A stretch of 64,000 bases of DNA from IMG/VR virus record IMGVR_UViG_3300022822_000008, one strand, 5' to 3'. The notes under the pieces are model-generated. The model did no database searches, was not told where the DNA came from, and saw only the letters and a list, made by a program, of their open reading frames with translations. The first letter of the stretch is position 1, and every line of letters starts with the position of its first letter. The position numbers and the translations under genes were made by a program. Of the stretch, positions 14,829 to 34,766 are shown one piece after another. This DNA comes from a virus. Its lineage: Duplodnaviria > Heunggongvirae > Uroviricota > Caudoviricetes.

Positions 14829-14843
14829 GGACACTTATTTATA

Positions 14844-24919: not shown

Positions 24920-25645
24920 TTAGTCTTTAATTTTTTCTAGCGTGAATTTTTTATCTTTATTGAAAGGTTTCTTCATTAAAGTTGCGGCTGTTTTCTTTAG
25001 CGTTTCTACTTTACCTGTTACTTCTTTGCCACCTAATTTCAGAGGTTTGCCGTCTACATATAAGCTATATATAGCATTATTTATGCGCGGTTTTTCTTTT
25101 GGTGAATCTTCTCCGGCATTACGTTCTTTACTTCTAGAATTCTTCTGAAATCTACTGTCCCAGTCTTTTGAACCTTCGTCCAAAGATTCCTTAACCAAGT
25201 CTTTAGAATCCACCGTCATAGAACCAGTACCAACCTTTACATTAACCTTTCCGTTTACGTTACCAACAACCGTGCCAGTCTCAGTTGCTTTTCTAAATAC
25301 GTCATAGCTTTTTGCATTTTTGATTATAACTTTATCACCTTTACTGAATGATTCTTTCATTGGTTCTTTCTTTTTGGGTGCAGGCTTTTCTTTTGGTTCG
25401 GGCTTTTTAGGTGCAGGCTTCTTAGGTGCAGGCTTTTCCTCAGGTTTGCCGTCGTCGGTTACAGGTTCGTTGTCTGGAGAAATCTCTGCAGTTATAGTCG
25501 ATGCTATTTTTAACAGACGAACTTTCCAGTCTTCACTGCCTGCGTCAGATGTTTGTAATTCACTCTTTAATTTTTTAAGGTCTGCGCCAACATCCTGCAT
25601 TATTGCAAGAGCATCAGAACTCATATCTTCGTTAGTATTTGCCAC
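24920..25645 (-). CDS. Putative internal head protein, modular
   Basis: PAPKK repeats, MKES / VKESLDEG motifs. Confidence 0.6.
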   Translation of the reverse strand: MANTNEDMSSDALAIMQDVGADLKKLKSELQTSDAGSEDWKVRLLKIASTITAEISPDNEPVTDDGKPEEKPAPKKPAPKKPEPKEKPAPKKKEPMKESFSKGDKVIIKNAKSYDVFRKATETGTVVGNVNGKVNVKVGTGSMTVDSKDLVKESLDEGSKDWDSRFQKNSRSKERNAGEDSPKEKPRINNAIYSLYVDGKPLKLGGKEVTGKVETLKKTAATLMKKPFNKDKKFTLEKIKD

Positions 25646-27305
25646 TGCTCTCTTCCTTAGGTGTATCTTTCTTTAGCTTTTTAACAAGTTCGTCAGTGCC
25701 TTCACATCCAGCTCCTGATTTCTCTGCCATAAATTTTTCGAATTTTTCATTATTGCTTTCTTTCATAACTCCAGCAGAAACCATTTTATCGTAATGAATG
25801 TCAAGTGTTCTAGCATCAACATTCCAAACCTTCGCGGCTCTGACAAGTGCATCTTTAACACCATCTTTTTTGAACTTTAAATATTGTCCCAATGCTGCTT
25901 TATATTCTTTAGAGCGAATTGTCCGATCAAACCAACGTTCTACTTCTGGAAACAAATCCTTAAGAAAATTTGTACCACCTCCGAATGGTGCCTCATTCAT
26001 GTAATCTTCTACCGATTCCTGAAGATCCAATATTGAAGCCATTACGTTTTCAGAATCTTCTTGAACCATGGCAGGTTCGCCATCTTTATAAGGAACAGTT
26101 GCAACTTTATACATCTTGAATCTTTTATCGATTTTACATGAATTATCTTTATTCAATAGCATGTGAAAGCGCTTTTTTGGTTTCATATCAACTAAAGATG
26201 CTTCCTCGATAAACCGAGATTCCATAAAGTCTTCAAAACTTTCGTTTAAGCGATCTTTCATAAAATCTTCAAACATCTCGTTTTTATTCCTATTCGCAAA
26301 TCTTTCTTGTTCTTTTTTCCTCACTGCAGGTAATAATTTCTTAGATATTCTTGCGAGTCTGCCCTTTGGTATTCTGTCAATCTTTTTGGATATTTGATTT
26401 TTTTGTGCGGTTGACATTTCATCAGGTGATTTGCCTTGAGAGAACTTCTTCTTTAATGCACCCAATGCTTGTTTATTGGCACGACCTTTTAATTTTTCAA
26501 GTGGTGCTTTTTTACGAGCAGCACGTTCACGGCCTTTTTTAATTTTTGCTTTATTTTTGCGTATGGACATCGACATTTTACGGCGCTGTGTGTTGTCCAA
26601 CACTCTTTCATCCAATTCGTCGCTATCTTCATGTTCAAGGTCTTCCGACAATCCCATTCCCTTACGAACCGAATTTAAAACTTTTCCAGCAGAACCTTGT
26701 AATTTACTAGGTAAACCTTTTTTAAATCTTTCCAAATCGTTGTCAGATGCGAGTGTTCTCATCTTAGATGCAGACATACCTTCCAAACCTTCAGCATCAG
26801 GATCTCTTTGACCTGCCGATACAACACCTACAGAATCAAAAGTAAATTCCTTTTTATTATATTTTTCTAATATCTTTTCAAACTCTTCTACTCGATCACT
26901 ACCAACGACCATAATGAGGTTGTTGTAGGAATTTTGCAACTCTTGAGCAACTTCAATTATCTGTTTAGCCTTTGATTTGACAACCATTTTGCCGAATGCC
27001 TTTTGAGCAAACATAAACTTATCTTCATATGATAATGGATTCTTTTTTGCGTCAGTTGAGTGTGAAAGGAATATTAGCGGTTCACCTTTCATCTTGATTG
27101 CTGTTGCAGCGATTTTATTTGCTAATTTTTCATGACCTAAAGTAATAGGATTCATTCGCCCAAATGTAATTACAGCAAGATGTTTTTTAACTGCCTCTTT
27201 TAAAGTAGGTTCTGTGTCTATAAATTTCTTAGGGTCAAAAGACTTATAAGTCTTTTTTGCGACCTTCTTATCAGGCTTCTCTTTTTTTGCTTCAATCATT
27301 GACAT
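25632..27305 (-). CDS. HxGH nucleotidyltransferase (cytidylyltransferase-like) with long basic C-terminal extension
   Basis: TFGRMNPITLGHEKL, KKNPLSYEDK, VVGSDRV, MSASKMR; late promoter at 27343-27350. Confidence 0.75.
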   Translation of the reverse strand: MSMIEAKKEKPDKKVAKKTYKSFDPKKFIDTEPTLKEAVKKHLAVITFGRMNPITLGHEKLANKIAATAIKMKGEPLIFLSHSTDAKKNPLSYEDKFMFAQKAFGKMVVKSKAKQIIEVAQELQNSYNNLIMVVGSDRVEEFEKILEKYNKKEFTFDSVGVVSAGQRDPDAEGLEGMSASKMRTLASDNDLERFKKGLPSKLQGSAGKVLNSVRKGMGLSEDLEHEDSDELDERVLDNTQRRKMSMSIRKNKAKIKKGRERAARKKAPLEKLKGRANKQALGALKKKFSQGKSPDEMSTAQKNQISKKIDRIPKGRLARISKKLLPAVRKKEQERFANRNKNEMFEDFMKDRLNESFEDFMESRFIEEASLVDMKPKKRFHMLLNKDNSCKIDKRFKMYKVATVPYKDGEPAMVQEDSENVMASILDLQESVEDYMNEAPFGGGTNFLKDLFPEVERWFDRTIRSKEYKAALGQYLKFKKDGVKDALVRAAKVWNVDARTLDIHYDKMVSAGVMKESNNEKFEKFMAEKSGAGCEGTDELVKKLKKDTPKEESSGKY

Positions 27306-27362
27306 CTTCCTGTTTATAATTAATATTCAACTATATTTCGTTTATTTATAATTACGATTAAA

Positions 27363-29705
27363 TTACCTAAATATGTAGATGTTTCTGTTTTTAATTATGA
27401 ATGTACCTATCGTAACGCTTAGTTTTACTGATACAGTATCTGAAGCAGGACCTATGTTAGTGTTCGTTAGTAAATTTATATTTTTTGACCTGCTATATAT
27501 TTTTGAACCTTCAGTTCTCGAAGAATTTGTTACTGCTATTGTGTCTTTGTAAATTTCGAAAATGCCTTCAGCGTTTGTATCATTTTCCCCATATACAGAA
27601 CCTCTTATTTCACTAAATCCAGATATTGTACCAAGACCGCTACAAACGTCACCTTTATTACCAGTTATAATGGTATTACTTAATGCACCAGATGGTGTAA
27701 ACATAGTGAAAGTACTTAAAATATTAATAGATAGCGATGGATTCCCTAATGGAGTTGTATAAGTAGCATTTGACATTGCAATGGCACCTGCTGTGGTTAG
27801 TAATCTACCTTCAAGAGCAAAAACATCACCTGGTGCAATTGCTCCAGAACCTATATAAGTACCTTTTATATCACAAGTCGCACCTATTGTTAAAGCACCA
27901 GAAACGCGCCAGAATATATTACTCGCCTTTGCTCCGTTTACTAATGTCGAAGTTGAAGTTGCACCTAATGCTAAAGCGGCTCCGCATATCACGACAAACA
28001 TAGCATCAGGATCACCTTCGGCGTCAAAAACAATATTACCAGTATGAGTGGCAGCTCCACCGATGAAATAAGTACCTTTTGTTATTATTTCGCCATTACC
28101 AAAACCTGCAACATGTGCTTGTTGGAATGATAAATTTACTATTTCGTTTATCAAAATATTTAGGTCTATTGCACACTGATCTGCTACATTAGCTGGAATG
28201 ACCTCATATTCCAATGATGACTCGATTCTATAATTTCCAGCAGTTACAAGTTGTGATATTCCATTAATGACAACAAAATCACCGACCGTTATTTCTTGTT
28301 CAGCAGATTCATTAAATTCGAAAGACGTTATTATGTCTTTTTCAACCCACGACAGTGAGCCATTCCCGTCAGTTTGTAATATAAAATTATTGCTGCCTCC
28401 GGATATTGATACGTTTCCAACATCGCCCAAGGAAGTATTACCGCTGAACGTTTTATTTCCTGCAATAGTTTGGTTACCAACTCTGTAGACTCCATTCGTT
28501 ACTGTGTCTGCATTTCCTGTCAAATCTCCAGTAATTCCTAGGACTGCAATGATTCCATTTTCTGTAAATTCGGCAGCAGTAAGTGGGCTAGCAAATGCGT
28601 TGGTTCCATTTGCAGTTACGTCAATAGTGATTTTACCGCCTTGATTATCTACAGATTGATTTTCGGTCGCAATCCAACTAATTTTAGCAGGACCGCGTAG
28701 CTGAAACCCATCATTAGTCATACCTTGACCAGCAATTACGAAAAGTATTTCGCCATCAAGCACTGGGTTAGGAATTGATGCAGTCCCATTATATCGTCTA
28801 CCTACCAAAACTGCGTAATTTTCAATTCCATCATAGTACGTCCTGTTTAAAAATCCAGAAGATCCAGTAGTGTGGATTAGAACACCTGTTTGATTCGCAG
28901 GAATGAAATCGCCATCATTATTGCCTATAATCTCAATTGCACCATCCAGGCTGTCTGAGTCAGGAGCAAAAACACGCAATCGCCCACCAGCCGATACACT
29001 AAATATAGGTTCAGAAAGTAATGCATTCTGAACGGTATCATCAGCAAATATATTAAGGCCTCCTATTACATCAATAAGACCCTCGCCGTTTGATTGAATT
29101 ACTATATGTTCGTTTGCATTTTGACTTCTCAATACAGCAACGTCTTCCACATCACCATTTGGGAATGTAACTTCTTGGACGTCAGTGATGAAATCGCCAA
29201 AATTAAAGGAGAGGCCTGAAGATTCAATGTTTAATATACCTTCTGAACTTATATTAACACCTGGAGCACCTCTAATCATACCTAATTTTGTTTGAGTCGC
29301 AGTCGGTAGCACATCAAATATATATTTTCTTTCTGTTGGATCGTAAGTTAAAAAATTACCTTCGGATCTTGTTAATGAGTTAACATCATCTAGCCCAGAG
29401 AAATTTACTTCACCACCTCCACCTATGGTCGACATCTGTGTCTGCAGTCGTTGAAGCAAAAGACCGTAATGTTCGTTCATCTGTTTCTGTGTTACAAAAT
29501 CTGTATTGACAAGTGGATCATTCCATCTACCTGCTTCTGAATTTTCGTTCACATCCTTTGTTCTGTTCAAGGATTTTGCAGTTTTTTCTATTGCAGATTC
29601 TGCAAATATGGCCGCTGGTTCTTTTTTAACATCACCTTTAGGTTTATTTTTTTGTAAATCTGAGGCTTCCTTTAAGAGTTTCTTTAAATCATTCATTGCG
29701 CTCAT
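27363..29705 (-). CDS. Fibre-like virion protein with DUF3494 ice-binding-like domain near the C-terminus
   Basis: N-terminal QRLQTQMSTIGGGGEV..SGLDDV fibre-type motif; GTY....A...G.IVFDAEGDPDAMFV...GAL......LVNGAKASNIFW.V.GA.TIG...GRLLTTAGAI. Confidence 0.75.
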   Translation of the reverse strand: MSAMNDLKKLLKEASDLQKNKPKGDVKKEPAAIFAESAIEKTAKSLNRTKDVNENSEAGRWNDPLVNTDFVTQKQMNEHYGLLLQRLQTQMSTIGGGGEVNFSGLDDVNSLTRSEGNFLTYDPTERKYIFDVLPTATQTKLGMIRGAPGVNISSEGILNIESSGLSFNFGDFITDVQEVTFPNGDVEDVAVLRSQNANEHIVIQSNGEGLIDVIGGLNIFADDTVQNALLSEPIFSVSAGGRLRVFAPDSDSLDGAIEIIGNNDGDFIPANQTGVLIHTTGSSGFLNRTYYDGIENYAVLVGRRYNGTASIPNPVLDGEILFVIAGQGMTNDGFQLRGPAKISWIATENQSVDNQGGKITIDVTANGTNAFASPLTAAEFTENGIIAVLGITGDLTGNADTVTNGVYRVGNQTIAGNKTFSGNTSLGDVGNVSISGGSNNFILQTDGNGSLSWVEKDIITSFEFNESAEQEITVGDFVVINGISQLVTAGNYRIESSLEYEVIPANVADQCAIDLNILINEIVNLSFQQAHVAGFGNGEIITKGTYFIGGAATHTGNIVFDAEGDPDAMFVVICGAALALGATSTSTLVNGAKASNIFWRVSGALTIGATCDIKGTYIGSGAIAPGDVFALEGRLLTTAGAIAMSNATYTTPLGNPSLSINILSTFTMFTPSGALSNTIITGNKGDVCSGLGTISGFSEIRGSVYGENDTNAEGIFEIYKDTIAVTNSSRTEGSKIYSRSKNINLLTNTNIGPASDTVSVKLSVTIGTFIIKNRNIYIFR

Positions 29706-29746: not shown

Positions 29747-30460
29747 TTATTTATAATAATTGGCAAAAGACGATATAAAGTCGTAATTCACTGCTGCAGA
29801 GTTTTCCCATATTGTTGATTTTCTTATCCATCCTAATGCAGCATTTGGACTTGCAATTTTTAATGGTATTACCGTACTTCTTTGATGTCTTATAAAATAC
29901 GCATTGTCTACGCATCCAAGGCGTCCTTTTGTCTCAATTTCTTTAATCATCATTTGTGCTGTTTTCTTTGTTATGGCATACGCGTGGGCACCCTCATGAC
30001 CATCTATATCAATAAGTTCGGATGTTGGACCTGCTGATTTATAATCATAATTATGCGGATCTGTAACTTTATAACCAAGAACTACTATAAAACCATCGGG
30101 AATTTCTATGTCAATAGGATTAATCATAACAGCATCATGTTCTAAAATTATTGCTACTTTGTCGCTACCTTCTGCTATTTTCTTCCATATTGCCGCATGA
30201 CCTGCAGTACAGCATTCCGCTTTTTCGCCAGCAGATAAATTAGGTTCGTGAGGAGGATTTGCAACTTTAGGCCATTTAAAAGGTCTGCCTTCACTCAGCG
30301 TCAAATTTATGCCAGTCAGTCCCCAAGCATAACCTCCGCGCATATCTTGATAACCTTCAAAAAATTCCCAATTGATATCAAGTGCATTACATGAAGATGC
30401 TGCCATGCTAGCGTATTCCATAGAAATATGATTCTTTATTCTCAATATGTAGGCCTTCAT
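29747..30460 (-). CDS. Glycosyltransferase GT25-like
   Basis: CCTAGHAAIWKKI, IILEHDA, GAHAYAIT..TAQ.MI, D. Confidence 0.7.
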   Translation of the reverse strand: MKAYILRIKNHISMEYASMAASSCNALDINWEFFEGYQDMRGGYAWGLTGINLTLSEGRPFKWPKVANPPHEPNLSAGEKAECCTAGHAAIWKKIAEGSDKVAIILEHDAVMINPIDIEIPDGFIVVLGYKVTDPHNYDYKSAGPTSELIDIDGHEGAHAYAITKKTAQMMIKEIETKGRLGCVDNAYFIRHQRSTVIPLKIASPNAALGWIRKSTIWENSAAVNYDFISSFANYYK

Positions 30461-31113
30461 TAATACATCCCCTCAGCATATCCAATCGAACCTGGCATAC
30501 CTGTTGAACCCCAAAATTGATTAGCGTAAATTTTCCCAGGTCCGTCATAACGAGGAGAACCTTTGGCATACCATTGAGGTATTAAAGTATAACTAGGCCA
30601 TATAGTCAGTTTATCGGTGTATCGATGGGTAATTTTTGATAGCATGTGATTTCCAGTTGTCATGAATGGTTGGGGATGTAATTGGTGAGGTTTTAAGGTG
30701 TGTAGTATTTCAAGTATATCTTTCAGTACTTTATTGCCTGGATTTGCTGCCAATATTGGACAAACATAACCGGGCTTTGCTTTTTGATTTTCATAACAGG
30801 TGTAAGCATAGTGAGCAGGATCTTTAAACAGTTCGTCTGTGTTGTGTAAACATTCTGAATCTGCTGGGGGTATAAATCCTCCTTTTTCGTAAAGAAGTTC
30901 ATAACGCATTAAGTCAGCAACGCCTGCCCATGCTTTTTTGTTATAATAATGTTCTATTAATTCTTGGTTGTACCATTTTCGATTTTTCAACATCTCATCA
31001 GTGAATATGCTATAATCCCAATCTGGATGTTTATTGGGCCAAGTATCTAACCATTTCATCGGTGCTGGATTTGGTCCTATCCAAATATGCATCATATTCT
31101 TTTTTAGGTTCAT
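30460..31113 (-). CDS. Glycosyltransferase GT32 / DXD sugar-binding family
   Basis: HIWIGP, ADLMRYELLYEKGGFI..AD, TTGN..L. Confidence 0.78.
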   Translation of the reverse strand: MNLKKNMMHIWIGPNPAPMKWLDTWPNKHPDWDYSIFTDEMLKNRKWYNQELIEHYYNKKAWAGVADLMRYELLYEKGGFIPPADSECLHNTDELFKDPAHYAYTCYENQKAKPGYVCPILAANPGNKVLKDILEILHTLKPHQLHPQPFMTTGNHMLSKITHRYTDKLTIWPSYTLIPQWYAKGSPRYDGPGKIYANQFWGSTGMPGSIGYAEGMY

Positions 31114-34717: not shown

Positions 34718-34766
34718 GTTTATTCCTATATGATGTTGGTTTAACAAACATATTTATAAATAATCA

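What the first reader, a model, noticed from the sequence alone, without database searches (positions are those of the whole stretch)
27363..29705. Virion fibre-like protein carrying an apparently circularly permuted DUF3494 ice-binding domain
Seen: residues encoded at about 27571-28195 match the DUF3494 ice-binding beta-solenoid pattern (helix ADQCAIDLNILINEI, then GEIITKGTY...FDAEGDPDAMFV...GAL...LVNGAKASNIFWRVSGALTIG...GRLLTTAGAI). The segment that normally starts such domains (FTMFTPSGALSNT.ITG..GDV....GTISGF...GSVY..ND) comes AFTER the solenoid, so the order is permuted. This is what the second half of one tandem DUF3494 repeat plus the first half of the next would give. The unit appears inserted into a C-terminal beta-sandwich (EITVGDFVVINGISQLVTAGNYRIES ... 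GIFEIYKD...VSVKLSVTIGTFIIKNRNIYIFR), reminiscent of a C1q/BclA-like head. Established: DUF3494 proteins bind ice in sea-ice bacteria and algae. Inference: the phage displays an ice-binding tip that could anchor virions to ice or brine channels, inhibit recrystallisation, or bring it to ice-associated hosts. A permuted, domain-inserted IBP on a virion would be unusual.
Basis: partly seen in the sequence, partly recalled or inferred. Interest (0 to 1): 0.9.

Follow-up and report, generated by a model that had tools for sequence, protein, structure and literature searches.

The report
Rearranged ice-binding fold on phage fibre
A large uncultured phage, probably from an ice-covered Antarctic salt lake, ends one of its fibres in a small head that carries a rearranged copy of the fold cold-loving microbes use to grip ice; glacier bacteria put the same head on their own surface fibres, and nobody has tested whether it binds ice or the host cell.

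Summary
ORF 27363-29705 (-) encodes a 780-aa fibre protein in a T4-like phage.

- **Head architecture.** Residues 457-780 give a confident model (pLDDT 94.7) of a TNF/C1q/BclA-like jelly-roll. A DUF3494 ice-binding-type solenoid sits between its 4th and 5th strands.
- **Permutation.** The solenoid is circularly permuted: helix, coils 2-6, then the coil that normally comes first. The order is collinear with tandem-domain IBPv (5UYT).
- **Family.** At least 59 proteins I examined share this head. A single origin is not rejected.
- **Ice-binding face.** The alanine and Ser/Thr ladders that form IBPv's ice-binding face are kept, including in the moved coil.
- **Conservation.** The solenoid is the most conserved part of the protein and the jelly-roll the least.
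- **New here.**
  - The closest metagenome relatives come from Ace Lake, Antarctica.
  - The best cultured-genome matches are glacier-ice Flavobacterium isolates, which carry the head on tandem arrays of secreted proteins.

Ice binding itself is untested. A role in binding the host envelope is about as likely.

This scan found the same architecture before on other DNA (e1-5340574/5, e1-3458178). I found no published description. I rate it a new variant of a known kind, interest 0.7.

The parts
27363..29705 (-). Whole gene: 780-aa fibre protein (P0001), stop codon 27363-27365
   Evidence: ORF list and translation. Full-length relatives at 66-76% identity (P0002) and lower.
29376..29705 (-). Residues 1-110: mostly helical N-terminal region, probable attachment end
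   Evidence: tblastn: residues 39-166 resemble cyanophage genes annotated tail fibre or baseplate wedge (E 1e-6). PHROG 28992, function unknown. Low-confidence helices in the model.
28338..29375 (-). Residues 111-456: fibre shaft
   Evidence: Model residues 212-396 match Bdellovibrio Bd1334/Bd2439 fibres and the phage T5 L-shaped tail fibre (Z 9.2-11.4; the next matches are Z 6 or less). The region is shared with more than 100 uncultured-phage proteins that carry other tips. Weak BppL_N motif at 409-422.
28191..28337 (-). Residues 457-505: first four strands of the TNF/C1q/BclA-like jelly-roll
   Evidence: AF2 model residues 18-66. Together with 710-780 it aligns to complete PLTL, BC2L-C-Nt, BxpB, ExsFA, BclA and cyanophage A-1(L) fibre domains (Z 12-15.7).
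27744..28190 (-). Residues 506-654: DUF3494 long helix plus solenoid coils 2-6
   Evidence: PF11999 profile 68-206, E 3e-25. Z 16-20, rmsd 1.2-1.6 to 5uyt, 7bwx, 6eio, 3wp9 and 4nu2, from their helix to their C-terminus. Most conserved region among relatives.
27579..27743 (-). Residues 655-709: linker plus the moved 'first' coil of DUF3494
   Evidence: Aligns to the first coil of IBPv domain B (chain 217-263) in the same alignment as the solenoid. In the re-permuted construct it joins the helix in one alignment to canonical proteins. pLDDT 93-95. Ala674 aligns with IBPv Ala253.
27366..27578 (-). Residues 710-780: last five strands of the jelly-roll
   Evidence: AF2 strands at model 271-340. 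Part of the TNF-like alignment. Least conserved region, 24-51% identity to relatives.
29748..29755 (-). TATAAATA motif 43 nt upstream of the start codon (T4 late-promoter consensus); a possible promoter only
   Evidence: The same motif also precedes nrd and other non-structural genes in the window, so it does not date expression.

Best explanation
The gene encodes a fibre of a T4-like phage.

Architecture (shown by sequence, profile and predicted structure):
- An N-terminal attachment region and a fibre shaft carry a C-terminal TNF/C1q/BclA-type jelly-roll head.
- A DUF3494 beta-solenoid is inserted between the head's 4th and 5th strands.
- The solenoid is circularly permuted. The coil that normally opens the domain now follows the last coil.

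Inferred from AF2 confidence and homology:
- In canonical structures the first and last coils stack on each other, so the moved coil can still cap the solenoid.
- The insert's two ends then lie close together, which a loop insertion needs.

Origin (inferred): a cut-out from a tandem DUF3494 protein, starting at the helix of one repeat and ending after the first coil of the next.

Function (inferred):
- The solenoid keeps the flat face of small residues that binds ice in IBPv. It acts as a conserved adhesion surface that tethers virions to ice or to ice-associated surfaces where the hosts sit.
- The faster-evolving jelly-roll may supply host-specific (lectin-like) recognition.
- Hosts are probably Bacteroidota, which carry the same head on their own secreted fibres.
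For: Architecture:
- Pfam, PDB sequence search, AF2 model and structural alignment agree on the two domains and their nesting.
- The permutation tests support the moved coil.

Fibre nature:
- The shaft fold resembles solved fibres.
- The N-terminal region is shared with more than 100 phage proteins that carry other tips.
- Relatives carry Mtd_N, BppL_N or collagen repeats.
- Relatives lie in head or tail gene modules.

Ice-face:
- IBPv's first row is Ala41/Ala212/Ala193/Leu174/Ala147 (PMC5673226). It maps to Ala674/641/622/604/577.
- The second row maps to Ser676/Ala643/Ala624/Thr606/Ala579.
- Both rows are A/G/S/T in nearly all 43 aligned members.

Conservation: identity to four relatives is 56-88% in the solenoid, 48-70% in the shaft and 24-51% in the jelly-roll C-half.

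Habitat:
- The window's own runs are labelled 'salt lake metagenome'.
- The best JGI relatives, L132 (53%) and L133, come from Ace Lake, Antarctica (PMC7416419).
- The best cultured-genome matches are glacier-ice isolates: F. urumqiense, F. xueshanense, ZT3R17, LB3P6 and LB1P62.
- There the head sits on signal-peptide proteins in tandem arrays.
Against: - No assay: ice binding cannot be read from sequence, and the IBPv paper itself notes that ice-binding sites have no consensus.
- The G-A-x-[STA] ladders lie at turns and may be conserved for structural reasons.
- The head family also occurs in MAGs from temperate reservoirs and rivers. DUF3494 proteins are common in bacteria from non-icy habitats, where their ligands are unknown (PMC11645318).
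- The five glacier isolates belong to one Flavobacterium lineage, so they are not independent, and there was no habitat-normalised control.
- The window's own sample is coded. Ace Lake origin is inferred from relatives and a label.
- The gene lies among replication, nucleotide and sugar-transfer genes, not in a structural module.
- I could not inspect coordinates, so neither the stacking of the moved coil nor the direction the solenoid points on the fibre was seen directly.
Confidence: 0.4

Rival explanations
1. Ordinary receptor-binding tip. The head, solenoid included, binds a component of the host envelope such as a capsular or O-polysaccharide or a surface glycan. The DUF3494 fold serves as a general carbohydrate or surface-binding scaffold with no role for ice.
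For: - Distal domains of phage fibres are normally receptor binders (established knowledge).
- Tips are swapped on the same shaft.
- Relatives carry Mtd_N and BppL_N, both receptor-binding-protein domains.
- The TNF-like fold matches fucose lectins (PLTL, BC2L-C-Nt) and a cyanophage fibre cell-binding domain.
- The family occurs in temperate freshwater genomes.
- The literature allows DUF3494 to bind surfaces other than ice.
Against: - The solenoid is the most conserved part of the protein, more so than the shaft. Receptor-contact parts usually diverge fastest.
- The same head sits on secreted bacterial surface proteins. That use fits an environmental ligand as well as, or better than, a phage receptor.
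- The flat small-residue face is kept across the family.
Confidence: 0.35
2. General particle or matrix adhesin. The head sticks virions (and, in bacteria, cells) to non-host, non-ice surfaces such as exopolymer, algal cell walls or other particles. This would raise encounter rates in the way Hoc-type capsid decorations adhere to mucus.
For: - In relatives L003-L005 and L011 the head-bearing gene lies between the portal and protease genes, or after the major head gene. Those positions suit a capsid fibre or decoration.
- The bacterial homologues are secreted proteins beside a T9SS-tailed protein.
Against: Nothing identifies such a ligand. This protein has a tail-fibre-type shaft and an N-terminus like cyanophage tail-fibre or baseplate genes.
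Confidence: 0.15
3. The solenoid is mainly structural. It acts as a rigid spacer or folding/assembly aid for the head, and binding is done entirely by the jelly-roll.
For: High conservation and a large buried core are expected of any beta-solenoid. Some fibre-end domains act as folding aids (established knowledge; Peptidase_S74 domains occur in distant shaft relatives).
Against: Relatives with the same shaft have plain BclA_C-like heads without any insert, so the head does not need it. A specific exposed face of small residues is maintained.
Confidence: 0.1

Closest known systems
IBPv, the two-domain DUF3494 antifreeze protein of Flavobacteriaceae isolate 3519-10 (PDB 5UYT; PMC5673226)
   Same: Best sequence and structure match: E 9e-35; Z 20.1, rmsd 1.2. 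About 30% identity. The phage insert is collinear with IBPv across its domain A/B boundary. The Ala and Ser/Thr ladders of the ice-binding face are kept.
   Different: IBPv is a free secreted protein with two complete domains in canonical order. The phage unit is a single domain that starts at the helix, ends with the 'next' first coil, and is nested inside another domain on a fibre. Ice activity is measured for IBPv and not for this protein.
Single-domain DUF3494 / IBP-1 proteins (EfcIBP 6EIO, AnpIBP 7BWX, ColAFP 3WP9, FfIBP 4NU2, TisAFP 3VN3)
   Same: Triangular right-handed solenoid with a long helix alongside. Z 16-19 over ~145-150 residues.
   Different: Only the stretch from their helix to their C-terminus superposes in sequence order. 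Their N-terminal coil has its counterpart after the solenoid here.
TNF/C1q-like trimeric heads: BclA C-terminal domain (1WCK), BxpB/ExsFA, PLTL and BC2L-C N-terminal lectins, cyanophage A-1(L) short-tail-fibre cell-binding domain (8KE9)
   Same: A jelly-roll of about nine strands at the end of a (collagen-like or beta) fibre. Z 12-15.7, ~110-118 residues aligned. Shaft relatives carry BclA_C-like heads.
   Different: No sequence-family match for this head. A ~200-residue domain is inserted between strands 4 and 5. Its oligomeric state was not established here.
Bacterial ice adhesins: MpIBP of Marinomonas primoryensis; SfIBP_1 of Shewanella frigidimarina (DUF3494 plus Ig-like domains, PDB 6BG8)
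   Same: Works-like comparison: an ice-binding-type domain is held at the end of a long extension to tether the carrier to ice. 6BG8 is a structural match (Z 16.5).
   Different: Those are cell-anchored bacterial proteins (from my own knowledge of the literature). MpIBP's ice-binding domain is not DUF3494. None is permuted, nested in a TNF-like head or carried by a virus.
Secreted fibre-head proteins of glacier Flavobacterium (F. urumqiense, F. xueshanense, strains ZT3R17, LB3P6, LB1P62; loci L052-L059)
   Same: The same complete head (jelly-roll plus permuted DUF3494), 30-36% identity over ~300 residues. Some have collagen repeats.
   Different: Cellular proteins of 425-540 aa. Those with a called start carry a signal peptide and a VGIGT-type N-domain. 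They lie in tandem arrays of up to nine paralogues beside a T9SS-tailed protein. They have not been characterised.

Membership tests
DUF3494 / Ice_binding (PF11999, IBP-1) | Profile match above Pfam's gathering score | tested here: met
   85 bits against a 28.7 cut-off, E 7.5e-24. Residues 507-655 alone score 89 bits.
DUF3494 / Ice_binding (PF11999, IBP-1) | Triangular beta-solenoid with a long alpha-helix alongside | tested here: met
   AF2 model pLDDT 94.7. Z 16-20, rmsd 1.2-1.6 to more than 20 solved IBPs.
DUF3494 / Ice_binding (PF11999, IBP-1) | Canonical order: initial coil, then helix, then remaining coils (PMC11645318) | tested here: not met
   The helix comes first and the initial-coil homologue comes last. 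It is therefore a permuted variant, not a canonical member.
DUF3494 / Ice_binding (PF11999, IBP-1) | Flat face lined by small residues on successive coils (the ice-binding site of IBPv) | tested here: met
   By alignment to IBPv residues named in PMC5673226: Ala674/641/622/604/577 and Ser676/Ala643/Ala624/Thr606/Ala579. These positions are small in nearly all 43 relatives. This is sequence-level only; flatness was not measured.
DUF3494 / Ice_binding (PF11999, IBP-1) | Measured ice binding (thermal hysteresis, recrystallisation inhibition, ice shaping) | not testable with these tools
   Needs recombinant protein.
TNF/C1q/BclA_C-like jelly-roll heads | Jelly-roll fold covering the whole reference domain | tested here: met
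   Model 18-66 plus ~270-341 aligns to PLTL 2-133, BC2L-C-Nt 1-127, BxpB and BclA 80-212. Z 12.7-15.7, 108-119 residues.
TNF/C1q/BclA_C-like jelly-roll heads | Sequence-profile match (PF18573 BclA_C, C1q, TNF) | tested here: not met
   No such Pfam match at E up to 1. The resemblance is at fold level only. Shaft relatives do give sub-threshold BclA_C matches.
TNF/C1q/BclA_C-like jelly-roll heads | Homotrimer | not testable with these tools
   Needs a solved structure or a confident oligomer model (see Tried and rejected). Collagen repeats in relatives imply trimers for those proteins.
Phage tail fibre / receptor-binding protein | Fibre-type shaft fold | tested here: met
   Residues 212-396 match Bd1334/Bd2439 fibres and the T5 L-shaped tail fibre (Z 9.2-11.4), well above the next matches (Z 6 or less). 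The model is of moderate quality (pLDDT 68).
Phage tail fibre / receptor-binding protein | Conserved N-terminal part with exchangeable C-terminal tips | tested here: met
   117 proteins share residues 1-440. Most lack PF11999 and some carry BclA_C-like or Peptidase_S74 ends.
Phage tail fibre / receptor-binding protein | Gene lies in a virion structural module | tested here: not met
   In this window the neighbours are glycosyltransferases, a cytidylyltransferase and replication genes. In relatives (L003-5, L008, L011) the head-bearing gene does lie among portal, protease, capsid or fibre genes.
Phage tail fibre / receptor-binding protein | Protein present in the virion | not testable with these tools
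   Uncultured phage. Needs virion proteomics or imaging of a cultured relative.

The most novel reading that the evidence does not exclude
Phage and host share one ice-adhesin head. Psychrophilic Bacteroidota anchor themselves to ice with surface fibres that end in the jelly-roll plus permuted DUF3494 head. Their phages have taken the same head onto virion fibres, so that particles are held on the ice surface or in brine channels where the hosts gather. This would be a virus that uses a non-biological substrate, ice, as a rendezvous surface.
Probability: 0.3. Interest if true: 0.85.

Novelty: new variant of a known kind. Interest (0 to 1): 0.7.

Why it matters
- **For ice-binding proteins.** Ice-binding proteins are known as secreted or cell-anchored tools of cold-adapted cells. 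A virion-borne one would add viruses to the organisms that interact physically with ice. It would also suggest a way for phages to find hosts in ice-covered lakes, sea ice and glaciers.
- **For protein evolution.** This is a clean natural case of permutation by duplication. Moving the first coil behind the last brings the domain's two ends together and makes a solenoid insertable into a loop of another domain.
- **For annotation.** Pfam reports the domain as nearly complete and in normal order, so automated annotation hides both the permutation and the host domain.
- **For experiments.** Arrays of the same head in cultured glacier Flavobacterium give a tractable system. They allow knock-outs and ice-adhesion assays that the uncultured phage does not.

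Tried and rejected
- **Trimer prediction.** Three copies of residues 460-780 returned 'no answer' (score 0.00, folded without an alignment). Nothing can be said on oligomeric state from it.
- **Pfam on fragments.** Fragments 440-506, 655-720 and 713-780 scanned alone gave no PF11999 match. The moved coil is too short to score alone, so its homology rests on the joint alignments.
- **Insert-deleted head.** A head with the insert removed (455-506 + 716-780), searched against the shaft relatives, gave no hits. I could not show by sequence that plain heads are 'the same head minus the insert'.
- **Free tree search.** The solenoid-core tree did not recover the head family as one clade (6 changes). 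The constrained one-clade tree was 35.9 log-likelihood units better, with p-AU 0.76. A single origin is therefore not rejected, but it is not proven.
- **Exact DNA search.** A 41-mer from the gene gave no match in IMG/VR or in JGI metagenomes.
- **Contig length in the Ace Lake paper.** Searching that paper's supplements for the contig length 210,608 found nothing. The window itself is not tied to a named sample.
- **Whole genome.** No whole genome is held for the window. There is no paralogue within the window.
- **RNA.** No RNA holder is listed among the sequencing runs.
- **BFVD and AlphaFold DB clusters.** No entry matches the combined architecture; TM by query is at most 0.40 and only the separate domains match. 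These libraries can miss folds.
- **TATAAATA motif.** It lies upstream of the gene but also precedes nrd and other genes, so I rejected it as evidence for late expression.
- **Direction of the insert.** I considered claiming that the insert points to the distal apex of the head. I dropped the claim because I could not inspect coordinates, and strand counting gave no safe answer.
- **Literature.** Searches for DUF3494 with phage, tail fibre or circular permutation found no description of this layout. Subscription journals are mostly not covered.
Full report
**What is there**

The finding's coordinates hold one 780-aa ORF on the minus strand (27363-29705).

The window is part of a large T4-like phage.
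- PHROG matches include the gp43-type DNA polymerase, gp46/47-type nuclease, UvsX, DnaB-type helicase, primase, topoisomerase II subunits and NrdA/NrdB.
- The polymerase is only ~42% identical to any deposited phage.
- The protein cluster sits on a 210,608-bp contig.
- G+C is about 35%.

**The DUF3494 match**

- PF11999 (Ice_binding) scores 85 bits against a cut-off of 28.7.
- Twenty-five solved ice-binding proteins match by sequence. The best is the two-domain IBPv (5uyt, E 9e-35).
- Cut into pieces, residues 507-655 alone carry the whole score (E 3e-25) and cover profile positions 68-206, that is from the long helix to the last coil.
- The flanks 440-506 and 655-720 give nothing on their own.

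**The permutation**

Three lines of evidence agree.

1. phmmer aligns residues 510-712 in a single stretch to IBPv chain positions 59-272. That stretch runs through the helix and coils of domain A, across the linker, and into the first coil of domain B. The segment FTMFTPSGALSNTIITGNKGDVCSGLGTISGF is paired with YTIFSGNGALTNAGITYVTGDVGTNVGLTTGF.

   - For 111 DUF3494 proteins the rearranged query aligned in one piece from its first ≤15 residues across the artificial junction.
   - It scored a median 7.8 bits more than the native order on the same domain.
   - All 44 head relatives tested aligned in one piece only with the native order.
   - Caveat: the 'canonical' label was itself defined by where that alignment started. 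The informative result is the clean split into two classes, with 19 truncated or partial proteins set aside.

3. In the structural alignments, solved IBPs superpose only from their helix to their C-terminus, for example TisAFP 78-223 of 223 and AnpIBP 53-203 of 203.

The canonical topology explains why this permutation is tolerated. [quoted passage not shown] The moved coil can therefore still stack on the last coil. I infer that it does from the model's confidence there (pLDDT 93-95) and from homology. I could not inspect coordinates.

**The host domain**

An AlphaFold2 model of residues 440-780, built on 43 relatives, has mean pLDDT 94.7 and pTM 0.86.
- Model residues 67-215 are the solenoid (Z 16-20, rmsd 1.2-1.6).
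- Model residues 18-66 together with ~270-341 align to complete TNF/C1q-type jelly-rolls. These are the fucose lectins PLTL and BC2L-C-Nt, the Bacillus exosporium proteins BxpB, ExsFA and BclA, and the cell-binding domain of the cyanophage A-1(L) short tail fibre (Z 12-15.7, 108-119 residues).
- Four strands precede the insert and five follow it.

The Pfam envelope (451-648 to profile 21-206) hides this. It runs about 55 residues into the jelly-roll and makes the domain look almost complete and in normal order.

**The rest of the protein**

- Residues 39-166 resemble cyanophage genes annotated as tail fibre or baseplate wedge.
- A moderate model of residues 1-470 (pLDDT 68) matches Bdellovibrio Bd1334/Bd2439 fibres and the phage T5 L-shaped tail fibre over residues 212-396. 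Those matches score Z 9.2-11.4, against Z 6 or less for everything else.
- The first 440 residues are shared with 117 proteins from uncultured phages. Most of these lack PF11999. Some end in sub-threshold BclA_C-like heads and others in Peptidase_S74.
- This is the modular tip exchange typical of phage fibres.

The gene itself lies among two glycosyltransferase genes, a cytidylyltransferase gene and replication genes, not in a structural module. Virion location is therefore inferred.

**The family**

The complete head recurs widely.
- It is found on proteins with Mtd_N, BppL_N or collagen repeats.
- It is found on ten IMG/VR contigs. There the gene lies between portal and prohead protease (L003-L005), after the major head gene (L011), or beside structural and fibre genes (L008).
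- On a tree of the solenoid core (59 head proteins, 111 canonical), the best tree found holds the head family together. It is 35.9 log-likelihood units better than the quick free search, with p-AU 0.76. One origin of the permuted, inserted form is compatible with the data.
- The closest canonical relatives are multi-domain tandem DUF3494 proteins, many with T9SS tails.

**What bears on function**

1. *The ice-binding face.*
   - The IBPv paper names the first row of each ice-binding site as Ala41-Ala212-Ala193-Leu174-Ala147 and Ala253-Gly429-Ala410-Ala391-Ala364. A second row is made of Thr/Ser.
   - The paper shows that bulkier substitutions lower activity (PMC5673226).
   - Using the printed alignment, with numbering checked on Leu174, Cys165, Cys226 and Cys244, these rows map to Ala674 (in the moved coil), Ala641, Ala622, Ala604 and Ala577.
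   - The second row maps to Ser676, Ala643, Ala624, Thr606 and Ala579.
   - Across 43 relatives these ten positions are almost always A, G, S or T.
   - The face is therefore intact. Because these residues sit at turns, part of that conservation may be structural.

2. *The pattern of divergence.* Identity of P0001 to four relatives, by region:

   | Region | P0002 | P0003 | P0004 | P0016 |
   |---|---|---|---|---|
   | Solenoid (506-654) | 88% | 69% | 60% | 56% |
   | Shaft (111-456) | 70% | 48% | 53% | 53% |
   | Jelly-roll C-half (710-780) | 51% | 24% | 28% | 25% |

   The part expected to track a changing host receptor would more naturally be the jelly-roll. The solenoid behaves as if its ligand were constant.

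3. *Habitat.*
   - The runs that hold the gene are all labelled 'salt lake metagenome'.
   - The best JGI relative (L132, 53% over the whole head) and the next (L133) lie on contigs Ga0222711 and Ga0222653.
   - Table S1 of Panwar et al. 2020 lists both as Ace Lake, Vestfold Hills, Antarctica. The IMG/VR relative L003 comes from the same lake.

4. *Cellular homologues.*
   - In species-representative genomes the best full-length matches among cultured strains are Flavobacterium urumqiense, F. xueshanense and strains ZT3R17, LB3P6 and LB1P62. All were isolated from glacier ice or glaciers (PMC12799291, PMC12117939).
   - A McMurdo Dry Valleys MAG is also among the full-length matches.
   - In these bacteria the head ends proteins of 425-540 aa. 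Most begin with a signal peptide and a conserved VGIGT-type N-domain, and some have collagen repeats.
   - They are arranged in tandem arrays of up to nine paralogues beside a protein with a T9SS sorting tail.

**Caveats**

- The five isolates belong to one cryospheric lineage.
- Full-length matches also come from Czech reservoirs and US rivers.
- No habitat-normalised count was possible.

**Reading**

The architecture is secure. For function I put three readings in order.
- About 40%: a conserved tether to ice or ice-associated surfaces, probably paired with host recognition by the jelly-roll.
- About 35%: an ordinary host-envelope receptor binder.
- The remainder: a general matrix adhesin or a structural role.

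That bacteria and phages share the head suggests either a common environmental ligand or capture of a cell-cell adhesin. The data do not separate these. Bacteroidota are the likely hosts (shared head, 35% G+C), but this is inference.

**Novelty**

I found no paper describing a DUF3494 domain on a phage, a permuted DUF3494, or this nested head. BFVD and AlphaFold DB clusters returned only the separate domains.

This scan has already reported the same architecture on other genomes. My independent tests agree with those notes. This window adds four things:
- the Antarctic lake link;
- the glacier-Flavobacterium arrays;
- the mapping of IBPv's ice-binding rows;
- the region-wise conservation pattern.

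I class the finding as a new variant of a known kind.

Noticed in passing
L052-L059 (Flavobacterium genomes), e.g. L055:218-12568, L057:2831-8156: Glacier and other Flavobacteriaceae carry tandem arrays of 2-9 paralogous secreted proteins (425-540 aa). Each has a signal peptide, a conserved 'QVGIGT..P..S.LD..S..KG.L.PRMT' N-domain and the same jelly-roll plus permuted DUF3494 head. A conserved ~590-616-aa protein with a T9SS sorting tail usually follows. They look like an uncharacterised family of cell-surface fibres.
   Followed up: partly
L003:3140-4741, L004:7365-8981, L005:4488-6104; L011:7764-8903: In several smaller phages the head-bearing gene sits between the portal and prohead-protease genes, or just after the major head gene. 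Those positions suit a capsid fibre or decoration better than a tail fibre.
   Followed up: partly
window 29747-31113 (-) and 25632-27305 (-): The fibre gene is flanked by two glycosyltransferase-like genes (weak Glyco_transf_25 and Gly_transf_sug matches) upstream and a 557-aa cytidylyltransferase-domain protein downstream. Together these form a sugar-activation and transfer cluster whose target (DNA, fibre or host envelope) is unknown.
   Followed up: no
window, 16 sites, e.g. 29748-29755, 27343-27350, 14836-14843, 34751-34758 (all -): TATAAATA, the T4 late-promoter consensus, occurs 16 times against about 9 expected. Most sites are 40-50 nt upstream of minus-strand genes, including nrdB and the cytidylyltransferase gene, so the motif is not restricted to structural genes here.
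   Followed up: partly
proteins P0270, P0272, P0282 (shaft relatives of the window protein): Relatives that share the fibre's N-terminal part end in a Phage_cement_2-like domain followed by a plain BclA_C-like head with no DUF3494 insert.
   Followed up: partly
L138 (contig Ga0222644_1000007, 241,956 bp, Ace Lake surface water): A 242-kb Ace Lake contig encodes a DUF3494 domain that matches the solenoid part (39% identity, query residues 68-258 of the 341-residue head query). It could be a second large phage or a bacterium with a related protein in the same lake.
   Followed up: no
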